Assembly (NCBI RefSeq): GCF_045037415.1
Contig: NZ_CP173438.1
Direction: 5' to 3' (one strand)
Length of the DNA stretch: 64,000 nucleotides
Source: Escherichia coli
GTDB lineage: Bacteria; Pseudomonadota; Gammaproteobacteria; Enterobacterales; Enterobacteriaceae
This document shows positions 46,027 through 52,225 of the stretch, one piece after another. How positions within the stretch are numbered: the stretch's first letter is position 1; the number at the start of each line of letters is the position of its first letter. The notes below the pieces were generated by a model. That model had not been told where the DNA came from. It ran no database searches and was given only the letters and a program-made list of their open reading frames with translations. Both the position numbers and the translations under genes were made by a program.

Positions 46027-46120
46027 AAAATAAATATATTCTGAAAAAATATGCCTGCTCTTGCATAAGAGCGGGAATATTGCCATGCTAACGAAATTCT
46101 TACACAAGGATGTAAAATTA

Positions 46121-46501
46121 ATGTTGCGTATATTTATTCCAACATCTAAAGGCAGAATTTCCAGACGCCGCTATATATTTTCATTTATTTTTACAAATCT
46201 AATTTGTATCTTACTTATTTCTTTTTTTTCCAATGCCGGGGCTGGTTTCTTTGTTATAACATCTACCATTCTTTTACATTATCTCGTTATCAACATGAAT
46301 TGCCAACGACTCCGGGATAGTGGTTTTACTTATATAAAAACTTATATTTTTAGTACATTAGTAGTCTATATCATTTCTTTCATCATCATGGTTGCTGAGC
46401 ATTTTGACTGTTCTGGCAATGGTTCGATGATTTTTTTGATTTGTTATTTTTCCACCTTTGGCATGTTAGTTCTTGCCCCCACTGATTCCCCCCGTAAATA
46501 A
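46121..46501 (+). CDS. yigG: DUF805-like inner-membrane protein (YigG)
   Basis: AT-rich ORF; start chosen at [18 protein letters not shown] to give 126 aa (the ORF track starts 20 codons earlier). Confidence 0.55.
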
Positions 46502-46515
46502 TTAATGGAGATTTT

Positions 46516-46896
46516 ATGAGTAAGGATTATATGGCAGATGGCTCATTAACTGAAAAGTGGAAGTACCGCTTTTCGTTTTATGATGAACATGGCTTCCCTG
46601 GATTTTGGGGTGCAAGCCCAGAATATAAACAAGCATTAAAAGGATTAAACACAAGGCAAAAGATAATAATTAGAACAAATGTTATTGCTTTTTTCTTCTC
46701 GTGGGTCTATTTATTTGTATTGGGTTTATGGAAGAAGGCTATTGTTGTTCTATTCCTGGCGATATTTTCTTTAATTTTTGGTTACATGATTGGCTATAAT
46801 GTATTTGGATTCATTATCGCCGCTTATGTTTCATACAATACCAACAGATGGTTCTATGAAAAAGAAGTAAAAGGTATTCATACCTGGAGCCTTTAA
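46516..46896 (+). CDS. yigF: Small inner-membrane protein YigF
   Basis: 126 aa, 2 TM helices, RBS gga-g upstream; position as in K-12. Confidence 0.55.
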   Translation: MSKDYMADGSLTEKWKYRFSFYDEHGFPGFWGASPEYKQALKGLNTRQKIIIRTNVIAFFFSWVYLFVLGLWKKAIVVLFLAIFSLIFGYMIGYNVFGFIIAAYVSYNTNRWFYEKEVKGIHTWSL

Positions 46897-46940: not shown

Positions 46941-47889
46941 ACAGCCAGTTCTTCCGCTTAAAGTACAGATACGGTGCCAGGCCCGCGAGGATCATAAAGA
47001 TAATCGCGCCTGGGTAGCCGAAGCTCCACTTCAGTTCCGGCATAAACTCAAAGTTCATCCCGTAGCTGGAAGCGACCAGCGTCGGTGGCAGGAACACCAC
47101 GGATACCACCGAGAAGATTTTGATGATGCGGTTCTGCTCGATATTGATAAAGCCCATCGCCGCCTGCATCAGGAAGTTCACCTTCTGGAACAGGGATTCG
47201 TTATGCGGCAGCAGGGATTCGATATCTCGCAGGATTTCACGCGCCTGCTCCAGTTGCCCACCCGGTAAGCGTGCTTTACGTACCAGGAAGTTGAGCGCGC
47301 GCTGGGTATCCATCAGACACAGGCGAACTTTCCAGCCGATATCTTCCAGTTCCGCCAGCGTGGAGAGCGCCTCGTCGTACTCATCGCCCTGATGCCCTTC
47401 CATAATTACCCGGCTCAACTGCTCCAGGTCGCTGTAGATATTTTCAATTTCATCTGCCAACTGTTCGATTTTGGTTTCGAACAGATCCAGCAGCAGCTCG
47501 TAGGCGTTACCGTCCACCATTGACTGGCTACGGGCACGCATACGATACAGACGAAAAGCGGGCAGTTCACGCTCACGCAGAGTAAACAGACGACCATCAC
47601 GGATGGTAAATGCCACAGTGGAGTTACCGGCGTGATCTTCCGCATCTTCAAAGAAGAAGAAGGAGTGAATATGCAGGCCGTCATCGTCTTCAAAGAAACG
47701 TGCCGATGCTTCGATGTCTTCCAGTTCCGGGCGGGTTGCCAGGCTCTGGCCAAGTTCAGATTGTACGCGCAGTCGCTCGTCGTCGTCCGGTTCGACAAGA
47801 TCAATCCATACTGCATTTACAAGGGGTTGTGACTCTTCGACTTCCAGCCGGGTCAGTCGGTTATTTTCCAGTTGAAATGCGCTCAGCAT
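46939..47889 (-). CDS. corA: Magnesium/cobalt transport protein CorA
   Basis: Matches CorA from [15 protein letters not shown] (316 aa), including the GMN motif ([11 protein letters not shown]). Confidence 0.9.
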
Positions 47890-48258
47890 GACCGGGACTC
47901 CCAATGCTTAAAATATCGGACAGTTCGGTGGGCACACAGAAACAAATTGGGTTTCAGACCATTAAACAGCCTGACTCAGCGCGACGGGAAAAATTGAGGT
48001 CGCTGACAACCGCTAAGGCTATCAGCAAAAAGGGATAGCCTTAGGAGTTGATCCTGGATGACAGGATAGTGAGCCAGTATCTACTGGGTGTGTCCAAGGC
48101 GAATGTCCTCTTAGAGTGATCGTGCGCGCATGTTACGCCAGCAAAATTTTGCCGTCAACACGCAACAGAACACCACAGAACAATAGTTGAACTTCGCGCT
48201 TTTTGGTACTCGTCAAGGTCGCTAACAGGATAAAAAAATCCCACATTCAGGGCCTATA

Positions 48259-49023
48259 ATGGCGCATCGGCTATTCATTGGTAAAGGAATGATCACCTTG
48301 AATCTCAAACGGATTTTTCTCACCCTCACCTTACTTCCCTTGTTTGCTGTTGCCGCTGATGATTGCGCACCCTCAGATCCGACGCTGACCGTACAGGCGT
48401 ATACCGTTAATCCTCAAACAGAGCGGGTGAAAATGTACTGGCAAAAAGCCAATGGCGAAGCGTGGGGAACGTTACATGCGCTGCTGGCGGATATTAATAG
48501 TCAGGGTCAGGTGCAGATGGCGATGAACGGCGGCATCTATGATGAAAGCTATGCGCCGCTCGGTTTGTACATCGAAAACGGTCAGCAGAAGGTGGCGTTA
48601 AATCTCGCTTCAGGTGAAGGGAATTTCTTTATTCGCCCTGGCGGCGTGTTTTATGTCGCGGGAGATAAAGTCGGCATCGTTCGTCTGGATGCCTTTAAAA
48701 CCAGTAAAGAGATTCAGTTTGCGGTGCAGTCAGGGCCATTGTTGATGGAAAACGGTGTAATTAATCCGCGTATTCATCCCAACGTCGCCTCACGTAAAAT
48801 TCGTAACGGTGTTGGGATTAATAAACATGGGAACGCCGTGTTTTTGCTGAGCCAGCAGGCGACAAATTTTTATGATTTTGCCTGTTATGCCAAAGCGAAA
48901 CTGAACGTTGAGCAGCTGCTTTATCTTGATGGCACAATTTCACATATGTATATGAAAGGCGAGGCAATCCCGTGGCAACGCTATCCTTTTGTCACCATGA
49001 TTTCCGTCGAGCAGAAAGGTTAA
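48259..49023 (+). CDS. yigE: DUF2233-family secreted protein YigE
   Basis: 254 aa with N-terminal signal-like hydrophobic segment, matches YigE. Confidence 0.8.
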   Translation: MAHRLFIGKGMITLNLKRIFLTLTLLPLFAVAADDCAPSDPTLTVQAYTVNPQTERVKMYWQKANGEAWGTLHALLADINSQGQVQMAMNGGIYDESYAPLGLYIENGQQKVALNLASGEGNFFIRPGGVFYVAGDKVGIVRLDAFKTSKEIQFAVQSGPLLMENGVINPRIHPNVASRKIRNGVGINKHGNAVFLLSQQATNFYDFACYAKAKLNVEQLLYLDGTISHMYMKGEAIPWQRYPFVTMISVEQKG

Positions 49024-49105
49024 ACATTGTACACTCGAGGAGGCCAGACAAACTGGGGCTGGCTACACAGCTGGAAAATCATCAGATAAATGAAGGGAAA
49101 CAAAA

Positions 49106-50008
49106 ATGAAAAAAACGCTCGCAACATTATTTTTATTAACCTGTCTGGGGTCATCATCCGCTTATGCGGATAACGCTTTGATTTTACAAACGGATTTTAG
49201 CCTGAAAGATGGTGCCGTCTCGGCGATGAAAGGGGTCGCATTCGGTGTTGACCATAATCTTAAAATCTTTGATTTAACACACGAAATTCCACCGTATAAC
49301 ATCTGGGAAGGCGCTTATCGCCTGTATCAGACTGCCAGTTACTGGCCGCAAGGTTCGGTGTTTGTTAGCGTGGTCGATCCAGGTGTTGGTACAGACCGTA
49401 AATCGGTAGTGCTGAAAACCAAAAACGGTCAGTACTTCGTTTCACCAGATAACGGTACGCTCACGTTGGTGGCGGAATCGCTGGGTATTGAGAGCGTCCG
49501 GCAAATCGATGAAAAAACCAACCGTCTGAAAGGTTCCGAAAAGTCATATACCTTCCATGGTCGTGATGTATATGCCTACACCGGTGCGCGTCTGGCTTCC
49601 GGGGCGATCACGTTCGAGCAGGTGGGGCCAGAGCTTCCTGCAAAAGTTGTCGAACTTTCTTATCAGAAAGCCAAAGCAACAAAAGGTGAAGTGAAGGGCA
49701 ATATCCCGATTCTCGATATTCAGTACGGCAACGTCTGGAGCAATATCAGCGACGAGTTGCTGAATCAGGCAGGAATCAAACTCAACGACACGTTGTGTGT
49801 GACCATTTCCGAAGGTTCCCAGCAAAAATACGCAGGGAAAATGCCGTATGTCGCAAGCTTCGGCGATGTGCCGGAAGGCCAGCCGATGGTGTATCTGAAC
49901 AGCTTATTGAATGTTTCCGTGGCGCTGAATATGGATAATTTCGCGCAGAAACATCAGGTTGCGTCTGGTGCTGACTGGAATATTGATGTGAAGAAGTGCG
50001 CTAAGTAA
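49106..50008 (+). CDS. DUF62 / SAM hydroxide adenosyltransferase-family protein with N-terminal signal peptide
   Basis: 300 aa; signal peptide MKKTLATLFLLTCLGSSSAYA; DUF62 N-terminal motif LILQTDFSLKDGAVSAMKGVAFGV. Confidence 0.65.
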   Translation: MKKTLATLFLLTCLGSSSAYADNALILQTDFSLKDGAVSAMKGVAFGVDHNLKIFDLTHEIPPYNIWEGAYRLYQTASYWPQGSVFVSVVDPGVGTDRKSVVLKTKNGQYFVSPDNGTLTLVAESLGIESVRQIDEKTNRLKGSEKSYTFHGRDVYAYTGARLASGAITFEQVGPELPAKVVELSYQKAKATKGEVKGNIPILDIQYGNVWSNISDELLNQAGIKLNDTLCVTISEGSQQKYAGKMPYVASFGDVPEGQPMVYLNSLLNVSVALNMDNFAQKHQVASGADWNIDVKKCAK

Positions 50009-50017
50009 GGTGCTGAT

Positions 50018-50049
50018 GCCGGATGCGGTGTAGCGCACCGCATCCGGCA
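50018..50049. repeat. REP element
   Basis: gccggatgcggtg-tagc-gcaccgcatccggc palindrome between the DUF62 gene and the uvrD 3' end. Confidence 0.6.
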
Positions 50050-50062
50050 ACGGAATCGTAAA

Positions 50063-52225
50063 TTACACCGTCTCCAGTCGGGCGTAAGCCGCCACCAGCC
50101 ATTTAATACCCTGGCCCTGGAATGCCACCTGCAAACGGCTATGCTCGCCGCTGCCTTCCATATTGACGATGGTGCCTTCACCAAACTTAGCGTGGCGTAC
50201 GCGCTGGCCGAGCTTGTAGCCGCTGTCGTTCTCGACCATCGGCGTCCCCATACGCTGATGGCTGACCGGGCGGCTTACCGTGGCGCGCAGGCGCACCTCT
50301 TCCACACACTCTTCCGGCAACTCACCGATAAAGCGCGACGGGCGATGGTAAACCTCTTTGCCATATAGACGGCGGGTTTCCGCGTAGGTCAGCGTCAGTT
50401 TCTGCATCGCGCGGGTTACGCCAACGTAGGCCAGACGGCGTTCTTCTTCCAGACGCCCGCCTTCATCTAGCGACATCTGGCTTGGGAACATGCCCTCTTC
50501 CATACCAACGATAAACACCTGCGGGAATTCCAGACCTTTCGCCGAGTGTAGCGTCATCAACTGCACCGCGTCCTGCCAGGTATCCGCCTGCCCCTCGCCC
50601 GCTTCCAGCGCCGCATGGGAGAGGAATGCCTGCAGCGGCATTAAATCTTCGTCTTCTTCGTTGTAGCTGAACTGGCGCGTTGCCGTCACCAGTTCCTCTA
50701 AGTTTTCGATACGCGTCTGACCTTTTTCGCCCTTCTCCTGCTCGTACATGGTGCGCAGGCCGGAGTCTTTAATTACCCGGTCAGTCTGTACATGCAGCGG
50801 CATATCGGCAGTTTCCTGCGCTAAGGCGTCGATCAGCTCCATAAACCGCTGTAAGGCGCTGGCAGCACGTCCGGCGAGGGCTTTTTCCTGCAACAGTTCA
50901 CGACATGCCTGCCAGAGTGTTAACTGGCGATCTCGCGATGTCTGACGTACCACGTCCAGCGTCCGGTCACCAATACCCCGCGTTGGCGTATTCACCACAC
51001 GCTCAAAGGCCGCGTCGTCGTTGCGGTTGGCAATCAGGCGCAGATACGAGAGCGCATCTTTGATTTCCTGGCGTTCGAAGAAGCGCATCCCGCCGTAAAT
51101 ACGATACGGCATACTCGCCTGCAATAACGCCTCTTCCAGCACACGCGACTGGGCGTTGCTGCGGTAGAGAATGGCGCACTCAGCGAGCGCCCCGCCGTTG
51201 TCCTGCCAGGTTTTGATGCGATTAACCACAAAACGCGCTTCGTCGAGTTCGTTAAAAGCGCAATAAAGGGAAATCGGCTCACCGTCCGCGCCATCGGTCC
51301 ACAGTTTTTTACCCAAACGCCCGTTGTTGTTTTCAATCAGGGCGTTCGCGGCGCTCAGAATATTGCTGGTAGAGCGGTAGTTCTGCTCCAGACGGATAGT
51401 TTCAGCACCGGGGAAATCATTGAGGAAACGCTGAATATTCTCCACCTGCGCTCCGCGCCAGCCGTAGATTGACTGATCGTCATCGCCAACGATCATCACT
51501 TTGCCGGTATCGCCCGCCAGCAGGCGGATCCACGCATACTGAATGTTGTTGGTATCCTGGAATTCGTCCACCAGGATATTGGTAAACCGTTCGCGATAGT
51601 GCTGAAGGATATGCGGCTTGTTAAGCCACAACTCGTGAGCACGTAGCAGCAGCTCGGCGAAGTCCACCAGGCCCGCGCGGTCACACGCTTCCTGATACGC
51701 CTGATACACCTTCTGCCAGGTCTGCTCCACCGGATTACCGTAGCTCTGAATATGATGCGGACGCAGCCCCTCATCTTTCTGGCTGTTGATGTACCACATT
51801 GCCTGACGCGGCGGCCACTGCTTCTCGTCGAGATTCATCGCCTTGATCAAACGCTTAAGCAGACGTAGCTGGTCTTCACTGTCGAGGATCTGGAAATCCT
51901 GCGGCAGGTTGGCGTCCATATGGTGCGCACGCAGCAGGCGGTGCGCCAGCCCGTGGAAGGTGCCGACCCACATACCGCCCTGGCTAGTGCCCATCAGTTG
52001 CCCGATACGATGACGCATCTCCGCCGCCGCTTTGTTGGTAAACGTCACCGCCATAATCGAATACGGCGAGCAGTTTTCCACGCTCATCAACCAGGCGATA
52101 CGATGCACCAGTACGCGCGTCTTACCACTGCCCGCGCCCGCCAGCACCAGAAGGTTGCTGCGTGGCGCGGCCACCGCTTCGCGCTGTTTGTCATTAAGGC
52201 TGTCGAGCAGGTAAGAAACGTCCAT
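50063..52225 (-). CDS. uvrD: DNA helicase II
   Basis: 720 aa from MDVSYLLDSLNDKQREAV (the ORF track extends 62 codons upstream); Walker A AGAGSGKT. Confidence 0.95.
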   Translation of the reverse strand: MDVSYLLDSLNDKQREAVAAPRSNLLVLAGAGSGKTRVLVHRIAWLMSVENCSPYSIMAVTFTNKAAAEMRHRIGQLMGTSQGGMWVGTFHGLAHRLLRAHHMDANLPQDFQILDSEDQLRLLKRLIKAMNLDEKQWPPRQAMWYINSQKDEGLRPHHIQSYGNPVEQTWQKVYQAYQEACDRAGLVDFAELLLRAHELWLNKPHILQHYRERFTNILVDEFQDTNNIQYAWIRLLAGDTGKVMIVGDDDQSIYGWRGAQVENIQRFLNDFPGAETIRLEQNYRSTSNILSAANALIENNNGRLGKKLWTDGADGEPISLYCAFNELDEARFVVNRIKTWQDNGGALAECAILYRSNAQSRVLEEALLQASMPYRIYGGMRFFERQEIKDALSYLRLIANRNDDAAFERVVNTPTRGIGDRTLDVVRQTSRDRQLTLWQACRELLQEKALAGRAASALQRFMELIDALAQETADMPLHVQTDRVIKDSGLRTMYEQEKGEKGQTRIENLEELVTATRQFSYNEEDEDLMPLQAFLSHAALEAGEGQADTWQDAVQLMTLHSAKGLEFPQVFIVGMEEGMFPSQMSLDEGGRLEEERRLAYVGVTRAMQKLTLTYAETRRLYGKEVYHRPSRFIGELPEECVEEVRLRATVSRPVSHQRMGTPMVENDSGYKLGQRVRHAKFGEGTIVNMEGSGEHSRLQVAFQGQGIKWLVAAYARLETV

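What the first reader, a model, noticed from the sequence alone, without database searches (positions are those of the whole stretch)
49024..50062. Signal-peptide-bearing DUF62 (SAM hydroxide adenosyltransferase-like) protein between yigE and uvrD
DUF62 enzymes (SAM hydroxide adenosyltransferase, fluorinase/chlorinase relatives) act on S-adenosylmethionine in the cytoplasm. This homologue has a clear Sec-type signal peptide (…SSSAYA/DNA), predicting a periplasmic location where SAM is not expected, so its substrate is probably different. I do not recall any DUF62 gene in K-12. A REP element follows the gene.
Basis: partly seen in the sequence, partly recalled or inferred. Interest (0 to 1): 0.6.

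Follow-up and report, generated by a model that had tools for sequence, protein, structure and literature searches.

The report
Exported SAM-hydrolase-like enzyme, shared with Helicobacter
This accessory E. coli gene encodes a SAM-cleaving (DUF62) enzyme with an export signal, so it probably works outside the cytoplasm; it belongs to a large uncharacterised exported branch of the family, and its closest relative outside Escherichia is Helicobacter pylori HP0709 (89% identical).

Summary
ORF 49106..50008 (+, 300 aa) lies between yigE and uvrD. It matches both DUF62 Pfam domains (E 5e-53 and 4e-18) and models as that fold (pLDDT 94).

Residues 1-21 form a canonical Sec/SPase I signal peptide (MKK, hydrophobic core, AYA|DN) outside the fold. 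No solved or characterised DUF62 protein has such an extension.

The gene is absent from K-12. It is present in 2413 of 5426 complete E. coli genomes, and 3007 carry the K-12-type empty site. A REP-like palindrome follows it.

New findings:
- The signal peptide is conserved in kind, not sequence, in about 80 homologues from at least 8 phyla and in 46 of 72 nearest 50%-identity cluster representatives. This is an exported DUF62 subfamily.
- The hydrolase triad (D91/R98/H151) and SAM-contact motifs are intact, so a changed substrate is not indicated.
- A Cys231/Cys298 pair is present in all 35 proteobacterial-clade members and in none of 117 others, suggesting a disulfide.
- The nearest non-Escherichia relative is H. 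pylori HP0709 (89% aa, 83% nt), nested inside an Enterobacterales clade, which implies transfer into H. pylori.
- dN/dS is 0.04-0.06.

Best reading: a periplasmic SAM hydrolase releasing adenosine and methionine. The activity, substrate and location are untested.

The parts
49106..50008 (+). CDS of the exported DUF62 / SAM_HAT family protein (300 aa plus stop)
   Evidence: ORF list. Pfam PF01887 and PF20257. RefSeq annotates the same CDS as 'SAM hydrolase/SAM-dependent halogenase family protein'. AF2 pLDDT 94.2; Foldseek target TM-scores 0.88-0.92 to 2zbu, SalL and PH0463.
49093..49098 (+). Shine-Dalgarno AAGGGA, 7 nt before the ATG
   Evidence: Read from the sequence. The H. pylori copy has AAGGA at the equivalent place.
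49106..49168 (+). Signal peptide codons 1-21 (MKKTLATLFLLTCLGSSSAYA, predicted SPase I cut before D22)
   Evidence: Rule-based n/h/c regions and AXA site; KD(10) 2.47. Lies outside the fold: pLDDT 51-59 with no secondary structure, and the first strand is 25-29. Equivalent extensions occur in about 80 homologues. dN is 0.2-0.4 here against 0.04-0.056 in the mature part. An in-frame 2-codon deletion in H. pylori SA213A keeps the frame.
49169..50005 (+). Mature enzyme (residues 22-300)
   Evidence: All 16 solved DUF62 chains align from profile position 21-26 onward. Non-exported relatives start exactly here.
49193..49195 (+). Asp30 codon (the TDF motif Asp)
   Evidence: Invariant in A2 and in both groups. 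Its ribose-binding role is taken from knowledge of the fluorinase and SalL structures, not tested here.
49376..49378 (+). Asp91 codon (hydrolase triad, equivalent to PH0463 Asp68)
   Evidence: VVDPGVG motif. D in 120/125 exported and 26/27 non-exported relatives. SalL has Tyr at this position (alignment).
49397..49399 (+). Arg98 codon (triad, equivalent to PH0463 Arg75)
   Evidence: R in 115/125 and 25/27. SalL has Thr here.
49556..49558 (+). His151 codon (triad, equivalent to PH0463 His127) in the TFHGRD motif
   Evidence: H in 105/125 and 22/27. SalL has TWYGKD.
49796..49798 (+). Cys231 codon, one half of a putative disulfide
   Evidence: Co-occurs with Cys298 in 35/35 proteobacterial-clade sequences; neither is present in the other 117; no sequence has only one.
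49997..49999 (+). Cys298 codon, other half of the putative disulfide
   Evidence: Together with Cys231 these are the only two Cys of the mature protein.
50018..50048 (.). REP-like perfect palindrome between the convergent DUF62 gene and uvrD
   Evidence: The GCCGGATGCGG core matches on both strands. Hairpin -36.3 kcal/mol, z -5.1. Sub-threshold match to the REP-derived naRNA4 family.
49025..50033 (.). Segment present here but replaced by about 120 bp of unrelated REP sequence in K-12 (the presence/absence polymorphism)
   Evidence: Alignment with MG1655. Gene allele in 2413 and K-12-type allele in 3007 of 5426 genomes.
49080..50014 (+). Segment homologous to H. pylori HP0709 DNA (935 bp, 82.9% identity); homology stops 26 bp upstream of the ATG and 6 bp after the stop
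   Evidence: blastn of window 47000-52000 against H. pylori locus L003.
48259..49023 (+). yigE (DUF2233 / phosphodiester glycosidase family), upstream on the same strand with an 82-bp spacer; possible co-transcription
   Evidence: No + strand promoter-like or terminator-like site was found in the spacer.

Best explanation
[quoted passage not shown] It is made with a cleavable Sec signal peptide and so acts in the periplasm.

Proposed mechanism, inferred rather than shown:
1. SecYEG exports the unfolded precursor.
2. Signal peptidase I cuts after Ala21.
3. The mature protein folds, probably as the family's usual trimer, and is probably stabilised by a Cys231-Cys298 disulfide.
4. The Asp91-Arg98-His151 triad activates water to attack C5' of an exogenous adenosyl-sulfonium compound, most simply SAM or its spontaneously formed (R)-sulfonium epimer.
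5. Adenosine and L-methionine are released and enter through the cell's existing nucleoside and methionine transporters.

On this reading the enzyme is a nutrient-scavenging device for a compound that these bacteria cannot import.

Population and evolutionary picture:
- The gene is a stand-alone accessory gene under strong purifying selection.
- It is old in Escherichia at the yigE-uvrD site and deleted in about 55% of E. coli, including K-12.
- An Escherichia-like enterobacterium passed it to the ancestor of H. pylori, where it is HP0709.
For: Shown here:
- DUF62 domains and fold.
- The hydrolase-type triad and family motifs are conserved, and the halogenase-type residues are absent.
- The N-terminal 21 residues have signal-peptide properties and lie outside the fold.
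- The same kind of extension, with unrelated sequence, is present in virtually all of about 80 homologues of 56-97% identity. They come from Proteobacteria, Bacteroidota, Verrucomicrobiota, Synergistota, Thermotogota, Fusobacteriota, Firmicutes and Planctomycetota.
- It is also present in 46 of 72 full-length nearest cluster representatives.
- The signal-peptide codons evolve 5-8 times faster at nonsynonymous sites yet stay hydrophobic, and an indel there is in frame.
- The Cys231/Cys298 pair co-occurs perfectly: 35 sequences have both, 0 have one, 117 have neither.
- dN/dS is 0.04-0.06.
- The locus is a clean presence/absence polymorphism. Cryptic Escherichia clades carry the gene at the same site.
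- E. coli and H. pylori copies form a clade with 100% bootstrap, sister to Edwardsiella (87%), inside a gamma/beta-proteobacterial clade (92%).

From papers:
- HP0709 was detected in H. pylori outer-membrane-vesicle proteomes (PMC8756444).
- It is recognised by patient antibodies (PMC11394471).
- A 'salL'-annotated H. pylori SS1 gene, probably this one, rises 2.9-fold in biofilm in the same table as the methionine permease metI (PMC6212823).

From established knowledge, not tested here:
- E. coli has no SAM importer.
- H. pylori requires exogenous purines and methionine.
Against: - No activity, localisation or substrate has been measured for any exported DUF62 protein that I could find.
- SignalP could not be run.
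- The OMV lists also contain many ribosomal and cytoplasmic proteins, so that evidence for export is weak.
- No conserved neighbour, such as a nucleoside or methionine transporter or a nucleotidase, links the gene to salvage across phyla.
- No SAM, methionine or purine riboswitch precedes it in 14 loci from phyla that use such riboswitches.
- Whether SAM is available at useful concentrations outside cells in the gut or stomach is not established.
- NCBIfam's (R)-SAM hydrolase equivalogs are matched far below their cut-offs (131.8 vs 350; 114.7 vs 470).
- The disulfide is inferred from co-occurrence only; no coordinates were available to measure the distance.
Confidence: 0.55

Rival explanations
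1. The protein is exported and keeps the DUF62 SN2 chemistry, but its physiological substrate is not SAM. It could be another 5'-substituted adenosine with a good leaving group met outside the cell, such as decarboxylated SAM, a SAM-derived natural product or toxin, or a halogenated adenosine. This is essentially the first reader's view.
For: SAM is an intracellular cofactor with no known periplasmic role. Seven positions are conserved in exported members but differ in non-exported ones: L121, A123, L177, Y207, P247, N265 and L267. The curated (R)-SAM hydrolase models score far below their cut-offs.
Against: The triad and every near-invariant family motif are retained. None of the seven group-specific positions is a triad residue. 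There is no biosynthetic or detoxification gene context and no PADLOC hit. No alternative substrate is known for any hydrolase-type DUF62 enzyme.
Confidence: 0.2
2. The N-terminal extension is not a working signal peptide. The start could be mis-set, for example at TTG Leu25, which would give MILQTDFS..., a typical cytoplasmic DUF62 N-terminus. Alternatively the extension could be an uncleaved anchor. Either way the protein would be an ordinary cytoplasmic (R)-SAM repair hydrolase.
For: A TTG codon lies at residue 25, exactly where non-exported relatives begin. All characterised DUF62 enzymes are cytoplasmic.
Against: The Shine-Dalgarno sequence sits before the ATG at 49106 in both E. coli and H. 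pylori; none is obvious before the TTG. The extension stays open in frame and signal-peptide-like in about 80 homologues across phyla, despite no sequence conservation. The in-frame indel in SA213A and the Cys pair restricted to this clade point the same way. Some subfamily members carry lipoboxes or are fused to extracytoplasmic-type enzymes such as a VanX-like dipeptidase.
Confidence: 0.07
3. The exported enzyme serves host interaction rather than nutrition. It would generate extracellular adenosine, an anti-inflammatory host signal, or deplete host or competitor SAM at the mucosa. That would explain retention in H. pylori and many pathogenic E. coli.
For: A nonsynonymous HP0709 SNP (D49N) was among the top hits of an H. 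pylori gastric-cancer GWAS (PMC6090961). The protein is seroreactive and is found in OMVs.
Against: The subfamily is widespread in free-living soil and water bacteria such as Chitinophaga, Verrucomicrobia, Thermotogota and Aeromonas, where host modulation is irrelevant. The GWAS association is statistical and has no mechanism attached.
Confidence: 0.1
4. In E. coli the gene is a functionless remnant on its way to loss, since more than half of the strains have already lost it.
For: 55% of complete genomes lack it. Some Shigella and E. coli copies are truncated.
Against: dN/dS is 0.04 between Escherichia alleles at dS 0.28-0.36. 2412 of the 2413 positive genomes carry at least 80% of the region.
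Confidence: 0.05

Closest known systems
SAM hydroxide adenosyltransferase / SAM hydrolase (adenosine-forming): Pyrococcus horikoshii PH0463 (PDB 1wu8, 2wr8), Salinispora StDUF62, and the archaeal (R)-SAM hydrolases MJ1651, Saci0719 and HvSAMH
   Same: Same two-domain DUF62 fold (target TM-score 0.88, E 1e-25). Same Asp-Arg-His triad and TFHGRD / VDPGVG / PDNG motifs.
   Different: All of these are cytoplasmic and begin at the first beta-strand. This protein has a 21-residue signal peptide and a clade-specific Cys pair. Identity is only about 30%. The curated equivalog cut-offs are not reached.
Thermotoga maritima uncharacterised DUF62 protein (PDB 2zbu/2zbv)
   Same: Best sequence and structure match among solved proteins (E 7.5e-44, 34-36% identity, target TM-score 0.91). 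It is hydrolase-type in its motifs.
   Different: It has no signal peptide, and its function has not been determined either.
SalL chlorinase and FlA fluorinase (SAM-dependent halogenases)
   Same: Same fold and the same SN2 attack on C5' of SAM. Target TM-scores are 0.90-0.92 for SalL and 0.81-0.85 for FlA.
   Different: The halogenases lack the hydrolase triad: SalL has Tyr72, Thr79 and Tyr130 where this protein has D91, R98 and H151. TIGR04507 scores 84 bits against a cut-off of 400. The 'adenosyl-chloride synthase / salL' labels given to HP0709 by automated annotation are therefore not supported.
Helicobacter pylori HP0709 (jhp0648; UniProt O25413)
   Same: Orthologue by horizontal transfer. 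300 aa with no indels, 89% aa and 83% nt identity. It has the same signal peptide architecture, triad and Cys pair.
   Different: It sits in a different genome context (uvrA-omp-rsmH-HP0708 | HP0709 | homA/B-HP0711-rpoN). GC3 has drifted to 0.45. It is uncharacterised and carries conflicting annotations such as 'acetolactate synthase' and 'adenosyl-chloride synthase'.
Periplasmic nucleotide and nucleoside scavenging enzymes of enterobacteria (UshA, CpdB, AphA, RNase I)
   Same: The proposed logic is the same: a Sec-exported hydrolase converts a non-importable adenosine-containing compound into importable products. This is a comparison from general knowledge.
   Different: The folds and chemistry are unrelated. 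No regulatory or genomic link was found, apart from an RNase T2/RNase I-like gene next to the Aeromonas copies.

Membership tests
DUF62 / SAM_HAT superfamily (Pfam PF01887 + PF20257) | Significant match to the N-terminal domain model | tested here: met
   PF01887 at residues 26-174, E 4.8e-53, covering model positions 2-145 of 145.
DUF62 / SAM_HAT superfamily (Pfam PF01887 + PF20257) | Significant match to the C-terminal beta-barrel domain model | tested here: met
   PF20257 at residues 198-291, E 3.9e-18.
DUF62 / SAM_HAT superfamily (Pfam PF01887 + PF20257) | Two-domain fold superimposable on solved members | tested here: met
   AF2 pLDDT 94.2. Foldseek target TM-scores 0.81-0.92 to 2zbu, SalL, FlA and PH0463.
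SAM hydrolase (adenosine-forming), PH0463 type | Asp-Arg-His triad (PH0463 D68/R75/H127) that is absent from the halogenases | tested here: met
   D91, R98 and H151 lie in the VVDPGVGTDR and TFHGRD motifs. The alignment offset to 1wu8 (query 26 to chain 3) places D91 at 68 and R98 at 75. The PH0463 numbering is taken from memory of Deng et al. 2009.
SAM hydrolase (adenosine-forming), PH0463 type | Converts SAM plus water to adenosine plus L-methionine | not testable with these tools
   Needs an enzyme assay with the mature protein.
SAM hydrolase (adenosine-forming), PH0463 type | Cytoplasmic protein without a targeting sequence, as in all characterised members | tested here: not met
   A 21-residue signal peptide is present. 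All 16 solved chains start at profile position 21-26.
(R)-S-adenosyl-L-methionine hydrolase equivalogs (NCBIfam NF058624, NF053629) | Score at or above the curated whole-protein cut-off | tested here: not met
   131.8 bits against 350, and 114.7 bits against 470.
SAM-dependent halogenases (fluorinase TIGR04507; SalL chlorinase) | Curated model cut-off and halogenase-type active-site residues | tested here: not met
   TIGR04507 scores 84.3 bits against a cut-off of 400. Where SalL has Tyr72/Thr79/Tyr130, this protein has the hydrolase triad D91/R98/H151. G152 aligns with SalL Gly131; FlA has Ser at that site (from memory of the FlA structure), so the protein lacks the fluorinase Ser.
Sec-dependent, signal peptidase I-cleaved signal peptide | Positively charged n-region, hydrophobic h-region of 7-15 residues, polar c-region with small residues at -3 and -1 | tested here: met
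   MKK / TLATLFLLTCL / GSSSAYA|DN. KD(10) is 2.47 against 0.45-1.28 in cytoplasmic neighbours. The assessment is rule-based because SignalP was not available.
Sec-dependent, signal peptidase I-cleaved signal peptide | Conserved in kind, not in sequence, among orthologues | tested here: met
   About 80 homologues and 46 of 72 cluster representatives. dN is 5-8 times higher in the signal peptide than in the mature part.
Sec-dependent, signal peptidase I-cleaved signal peptide | Actual export and cleavage | not testable with these tools
   The only indirect evidence is HP0709 in OMV proteomes and its seroreactivity.
Bacterial lipoprotein (SPase II lipobox) | [LVI][ASTVI][GAS]-C lipobox | tested here: not met
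   L-L-T-C13 has Thr at -1, and Cys13 is lost in H. pylori SA213A (LATQIG). Some distant subfamily members do have lipoboxes.
Tat signal peptide | Twin-arginine motif (S/T-R-R-x-F-L-K) | tested here: not met
   There is no RR in residues 1-21.
REP (repetitive extragenic palindromic) element | Extragenic imperfect palindrome with a GCCGGATGCGG-type core, repeated in the genome | tested here: met
   The core is present on both arms at 50018-50048 and again at 1514 in the window; 0.11 matches are expected by chance. The hairpin is stable. The palindrome is perfect rather than imperfect.

The most novel reading that the evidence does not exclude
Exported DUF62 enzymes form an unrecognised extracytoplasmic SAM (adenosyl-sulfonium) salvage step found across many bacterial phyla. 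They would split environmental SAM into adenosine and methionine outside the cytoplasm. On this reading H. pylori, which needs both purines and methionine from its host, captured the gene from an Escherichia-like gut bacterium and fixed it as HP0709. Allelic variation in it (the D49N gastric-cancer GWAS hit) would then reflect host-nutrient or adenosine-signalling interplay.
Probability: 0.35. Interest if true: 0.75.

Novelty: new variant of a known kind. Interest (0 to 1): 0.55.

Why it matters
DUF62 enzymes are studied as cytoplasmic SAM-repair hydrolases and as the only known fluorinases and chlorinases that use SAM. Every characterised member is intracellular.

A large, well-conserved exported branch with intact catalytic residues implies one of two things. 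Either SAM, or a close relative of it, is a relevant extracellular metabolite. Or this chemistry has an unknown extracytoplasmic use. Members of this branch stay at 56% identity or more across phyla.

The E. coli gene offers a tractable test system. Natural plus and minus strains exist, including BL21 and Nissle (plus) and K-12 (minus).

The result also gives a concrete hypothesis for H. pylori HP0709. That gene is uncharacterised, is mis-annotated as 'acetolactate synthase' or 'adenosyl-chloride synthase', is seroreactive, and was flagged in a gastric-cancer GWAS.

Finally, it documents an unusually clear gene transfer from an enterobacterium into H. pylori.

Tried and rejected
- **Gene-neighbourhood analysis of about 80 loci** (all-against-all clustering, then NCBIfam). 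The only cross-phylum 'shared' neighbours were GGDEF, RhlE-type helicase and LysR proteins. These are large promiscuous families, so the matches are chance. The gene is stand-alone.
- **Riboswitch or leader search** in 14 loci from Tissierellia, Fusobacteriales, Synergistota and Thermotogota. Nothing was found except a 16S fragment.
- **Rfam on the window region.** Only sub-threshold REP-derived naRNA4 matches appeared.
- **PADLOC defence models.** No hit for this protein or for YigE.
- **Promoter and terminator scan.** There is no + strand sigma-70-like site in the 82-bp yigE-gene spacer and no terminator there. Co-transcription with yigE is possible but unproven.
- **Literature searches** for DUF62 or SAM hydrolase combined with signal peptide, periplasm or secretome. 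They returned only DUF62xx false positives or papers on cytoplasmic enzymes. The two key family papers (PMC7736106, PMC2692205) are not held in the library.
- **Lipoprotein and Tat readings** of the signal were rejected on motif grounds.
- **Contamination as the cause of the H. pylori similarity** was rejected. The gene lies in complete H. pylori chromosomes between H. pylori genes, at 83% rather than 100% nt identity, in thousands of genomes.
- **Composition as a guide to transfer direction** was uninformative. GC3 is 0.52 in E. coli, the same as yigE, and 0.45 in H. pylori, against 0.39-0.44 for its neighbours. Direction therefore rests on the tree and on synteny.
Full report
**1. What is there**

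The interval 49024-50062 is the whole gap between yigE (48259..49023, +) and the convergent uvrD (stop at 50063, -). It holds one ORF, 49106..50008 (+), 300 aa. An AAGGGA Shine-Dalgarno lies 7 nt before the ATG. RefSeq annotates exactly this CDS in an identical strain as 'SAM hydrolase/SAM-dependent halogenase family protein'.

Pfam gives PF01887 (SAM_HAT_N, residues 26-174, E 4.8e-53) and PF20257 (SAM_HAT_C, 198-291, E 3.9e-18). The best solved relatives are the Thermotoga maritima protein 2zbu (E 7.5e-44), the chlorinase SalL and the SAM hydroxide adenosyltransferase PH0463.

An AlphaFold2 model built on a 51-sequence alignment has mean pLDDT 94.2 and pTM 0.88. It superimposes on these structures with target TM-scores of 0.81-0.92. 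The DUF62 assignment is secure.

**2. The signal peptide**

Residues 1-21 read MKK-TLATLFLLTCL-GSSSAYA, followed by DN. This gives two positive charges, an 11-residue hydrophobic core, a small polar c-region, and Ala at -3 and -1.

- The maximum 10-residue Kyte-Doolittle mean is 2.47. The exported neighbour YigE scores 2.35, and UvrD, CorA, YigB and XerC score 0.45-1.28.
- In the model, residues 1-20 have pLDDT 51-59 and no secondary structure. The first strand of the fold is residues 25-29.
- All 16 solved DUF62 sequences align from profile position 21-26 onward, so none has this extension.
- There is no twin-arginine motif.
- The L-L-T-C13 string is not a lipobox: Thr sits at -1, and Cys13 is lost in an H. 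pylori variant.

SignalP was not available, so this assessment is rule-based. The comparative evidence below is stronger than any single prediction.

**3. It is a subfamily, not an oddity**

A scan of one genome per GTDB species returned 80 loci encoding relatives of 56-97% identity. They come from Gamma- and Betaproteobacteria, Desulfobacterales, Bacteroidota, Verrucomicrobiota, Planctomycetota, Synergistota, Thermotogota, Fusobacteriota and Tissierellia.

Virtually every one has an N-terminal extension with K/R, then a hydrophobic stretch, then an AXA-like site. The extension ends 2-5 residues before the conserved ALV[FL]QTDFG strand, and its sequence is unrelated between lineages.

In the 1.84-billion-protein representative library the query has 8762 relatives at E<=1e-3 and 400 at E<=1e-30. 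Among the 72 full-length proteins in the best 150, 46 have a signal-peptide-like extension (several with lipoboxes). Another 23 start directly at the first strand.

Between E. coli and H. pylori the signal-peptide codons have dN 0.20-0.41, against 0.04-0.056 for the mature part. H. pylori SA213A has an in-frame 2-codon deletion there. This is the usual behaviour of a translated, functional signal peptide.

**4. The Cys pair**

Cys231 and Cys298 are the only cysteines of the mature protein. Both are present in all 35 sequences of the proteobacterial clade and in none of the other 117 aligned relatives, exported or not. No sequence has just one of them. This pattern suggests a structural disulfide, which would fit a periplasmic location. 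I could not measure the distance because model coordinates are not returned.

**5. Active site**

The Asp-Arg-His triad distinguishes DUF62 hydrolases from the halogenases. In PH0463 it is D68/R75/H127; that numbering is from my knowledge of Deng et al. 2009 and agrees with the alignment offset. It corresponds to D91, R98 and H151 here.

- SalL has Tyr72, Thr79 and Tyr130 at these positions.
- In 125 exported relatives the three residues are conserved at 96%, 92% and 84%. In 27 non-exported relatives the figures are 96%, 93% and 81%.
- D30, P114-D115-N116-G117, F150-G152-R153-D154 and N209 are near-invariant in both groups.
- Only seven positions are group-specific: 121, 123, 177, 207, 247, 265 and 267.
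- NCBIfam's curated equivalogs for (R)-SAM hydrolase and fluorinase are matched far below their cut-offs.

I therefore file the protein in the superfamily and call it 'hydrolase-type'. I do not file it as a member of any curated equivalog. The compartment differs; the chemistry apparently does not.

**6. Distribution in E. coli**

The region is present in 2413 of 5426 complete genomes. It is almost always chromosomal and single-copy, at 90-100% identity. Carriers include Nissle-type and BL21 strains.

K-12 MG1655 has a 146-bp yigE-uvrD gap with unrelated REP sequence. That empty-site allele is found in 3007 genomes. Together the two alleles account for 5420 of the 5426 genomes.

Two cryptic-clade Escherichia genomes carry the gene at the same site. 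Their dS to the window allele is 0.28-0.36 and dN/dS is 0.04. The gene is therefore old at this locus, K-12 carries a deletion, and the gene is under strong purifying selection.

Edwardsiella piscicida has a 72%-identical copy about 5 kb from rarD and corA. This is consistent with long residence in Enterobacterales. In each lineage the gene's GC content matches its host genome.

**7. The H. pylori connection**

After Escherichia and Shigella, the next best hits are H. pylori and H. acinonychis. They are 88-89% identical over all 300 residues with no indels. Aeromonas follows at 72-76%.

The H. pylori gene lies in complete chromosomes between uvrA, an HP_OMP gene, rsmH and HP0708 on one side and the homA/B locus, HP0711 and rpoN on the other. 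It is HP0709 / jhp0648.

- Nucleotide identity is 83.4%, or 0.89/0.96/0.645 by codon position.
- DNA homology covers window 49080-50014 only. It starts 26 bp before the ATG and ends 6 bp after the stop.
- A neighbour-joining tree groups Escherichia and H. pylori with 100% bootstrap. That clade is sister to Edwardsiella (87%), inside a gamma/beta-proteobacterial clade (92%).
- No other member of the Campylobacterota appeared among the 80 best loci.

The simplest reading is transfer from an Escherichia-like enterobacterium into the ancestor of H. pylori.

The transfer predates H. pylori diversification. The hpAfrica2 strain SA213A differs from another strain by dS 0.52 and 8% of residues. Escherichia and H. 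pylori differ by dS 0.88-1.3 and 7-11% of residues. Of the differences that outgroups can polarise, 14 fall on the H. pylori branch and 6 on the E. coli branch.

GC3 in H. pylori has drifted to 0.45, with neighbours at 0.39-0.44. A prophage integration hotspot adjoins this gene and homA in H. pylori (PMC11321410).

I found no paper reporting this transfer. The library is incomplete, so it may still have been reported.

**8. What is known about HP0709**

Very little is known.
- It appears in OMV proteome lists, which also contain many cytoplasmic proteins (PMC8756444).
- Anti-HP0709 antibodies are part of a serological panel (PMC11394471).
- A D49N SNP was a top hit in a gastric-cancer GWAS, whose authors note that the function is uncertain and the annotations conflict (PMC6090961).
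- A gene annotated 'salL', probably this one, is up 2.9-fold in SS1 biofilm, in the same table as metI at 2.2-fold (PMC6212823).

**9. Mechanism proposed**

Shown: the fold, an intact triad, a signal-peptide-like extension conserved across a subfamily, purifying selection, and the clade-specific Cys pair.

Inferred: Sec export, cleavage after Ala21, a disulfide, trimer formation, and hydrolysis of exogenous SAM (either sulfonium epimer) to adenosine plus methionine, followed by uptake.

The appeal of this reading rests on established knowledge. E. coli cannot import SAM, and H. pylori needs exogenous purines and methionine.

Weaknesses:
- There is no conserved transporter or nucleotidase neighbour.
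- No riboswitch precedes the gene.
- No biochemical data exist for any exported member.
- The availability of extracellular SAM is uncertain.

My confidence that the protein is exported and hydrolase-type is about 0.85. My confidence that SAM scavenging is its role is about 0.4-0.5.

**10. Verdict**

The finding is a new variant of a known kind: an exported branch of DUF62. It comes with a clear enterobacterium-to-Helicobacter transfer and a testable hypothesis for an H. pylori gene of clinical interest. Interest is moderate to good at 0.55. The gene is already annotated at family level, but its compartment, its subfamily and its H. pylori kinship appear undescribed.

Noticed in passing
window 49080-50014 vs L003:5981-6909 (H. 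pylori CP079344.1): H. pylori HP0709 is 89% aa and 83% nt identical to the E. coli gene. DNA homology is confined to the gene plus 26 bp upstream and 6 bp downstream. In the tree it nests within Enterobacterales, which implies inter-phylum transfer into H. pylori.
   Followed up: yes
window 48259-49023 (yigE): YigE is only 93% identical in amino acids between this strain and two cryptic-clade Escherichia genomes. The flanking CorA, UvrD, YigB and XerC are 98.3-100% identical. yigE and the DUF62 gene also share a lower GC3 (0.51-0.52) than corA (0.63) and uvrD (0.70). The yigE-DUF62 pair looks like a faster-evolving or separately acquired islet.
   Followed up: partly
window 46061-46896: Two small membrane-protein-like ORFs lie between rarD and corA (146 aa and 126 aa). 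In the identical strain SK1144 the first is annotated as a frameshifted hypothetical pseudogene and the second as a DUF2628 protein.
   Followed up: no
window 50053-50062: A 10-bp indel (GAATCGTAAA, present here and absent in K-12) lies immediately after the uvrD stop codon, next to the REP arm shared by both alleles.
   Followed up: no
L067:6001-7920 and L076 (Fervidobacterium MAGs); P0204; P0161: Some exported DUF62 proteins are fused to further domains. In Fervidobacterium these are a second SAM_HAT_C-like repeat plus a CX5R (HCVEGKDR) phosphatase-like domain. P0204 carries a VanX-like D-Ala-D-Ala dipeptidase-like domain, and P0161 an alpha/beta-hydrolase-like domain. The domain names are judged by eye from motifs and were not searched.
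   Followed up: partly
L010:7625-8455 and 10 other Aeromonas loci: In Aeromonas a ribonuclease T2 / RNase I-like gene follows the exported DUF62 gene. The match is weak (E 8e-9, below the cut-off). It is the only neighbour hinting at nucleic-acid or nucleoside scavenging, and it is conserved only within the genus.
   Followed up: partly
L009:4814-5707 (H. pylori SA213A, hpAfrica2): This allele has a 2-codon in-frame deletion in the signal peptide and lacks Cys13. It differs from another H. pylori allele by dS 0.52, which is unusually deep within-species divergence for this gene.
   Followed up: partly
H. pylori locus L003-L006, downstream of 6903: The space between HP0709 and HP0711 is variable: a 656-661-aa homA/B-like gene is present in three loci and absent in L004. 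The literature reports a prophage integration hotspot next to homA and this gene (PMC11321410).
   Followed up: no
Shigella proteins P0044, P0045, P0053; E. coli HS-02 (hit H20): Some Shigella copies are shortened (276-290 aa), and one E. coli genome keeps only 42% of the region. This suggests occasional pseudogenisation.
   Followed up: no
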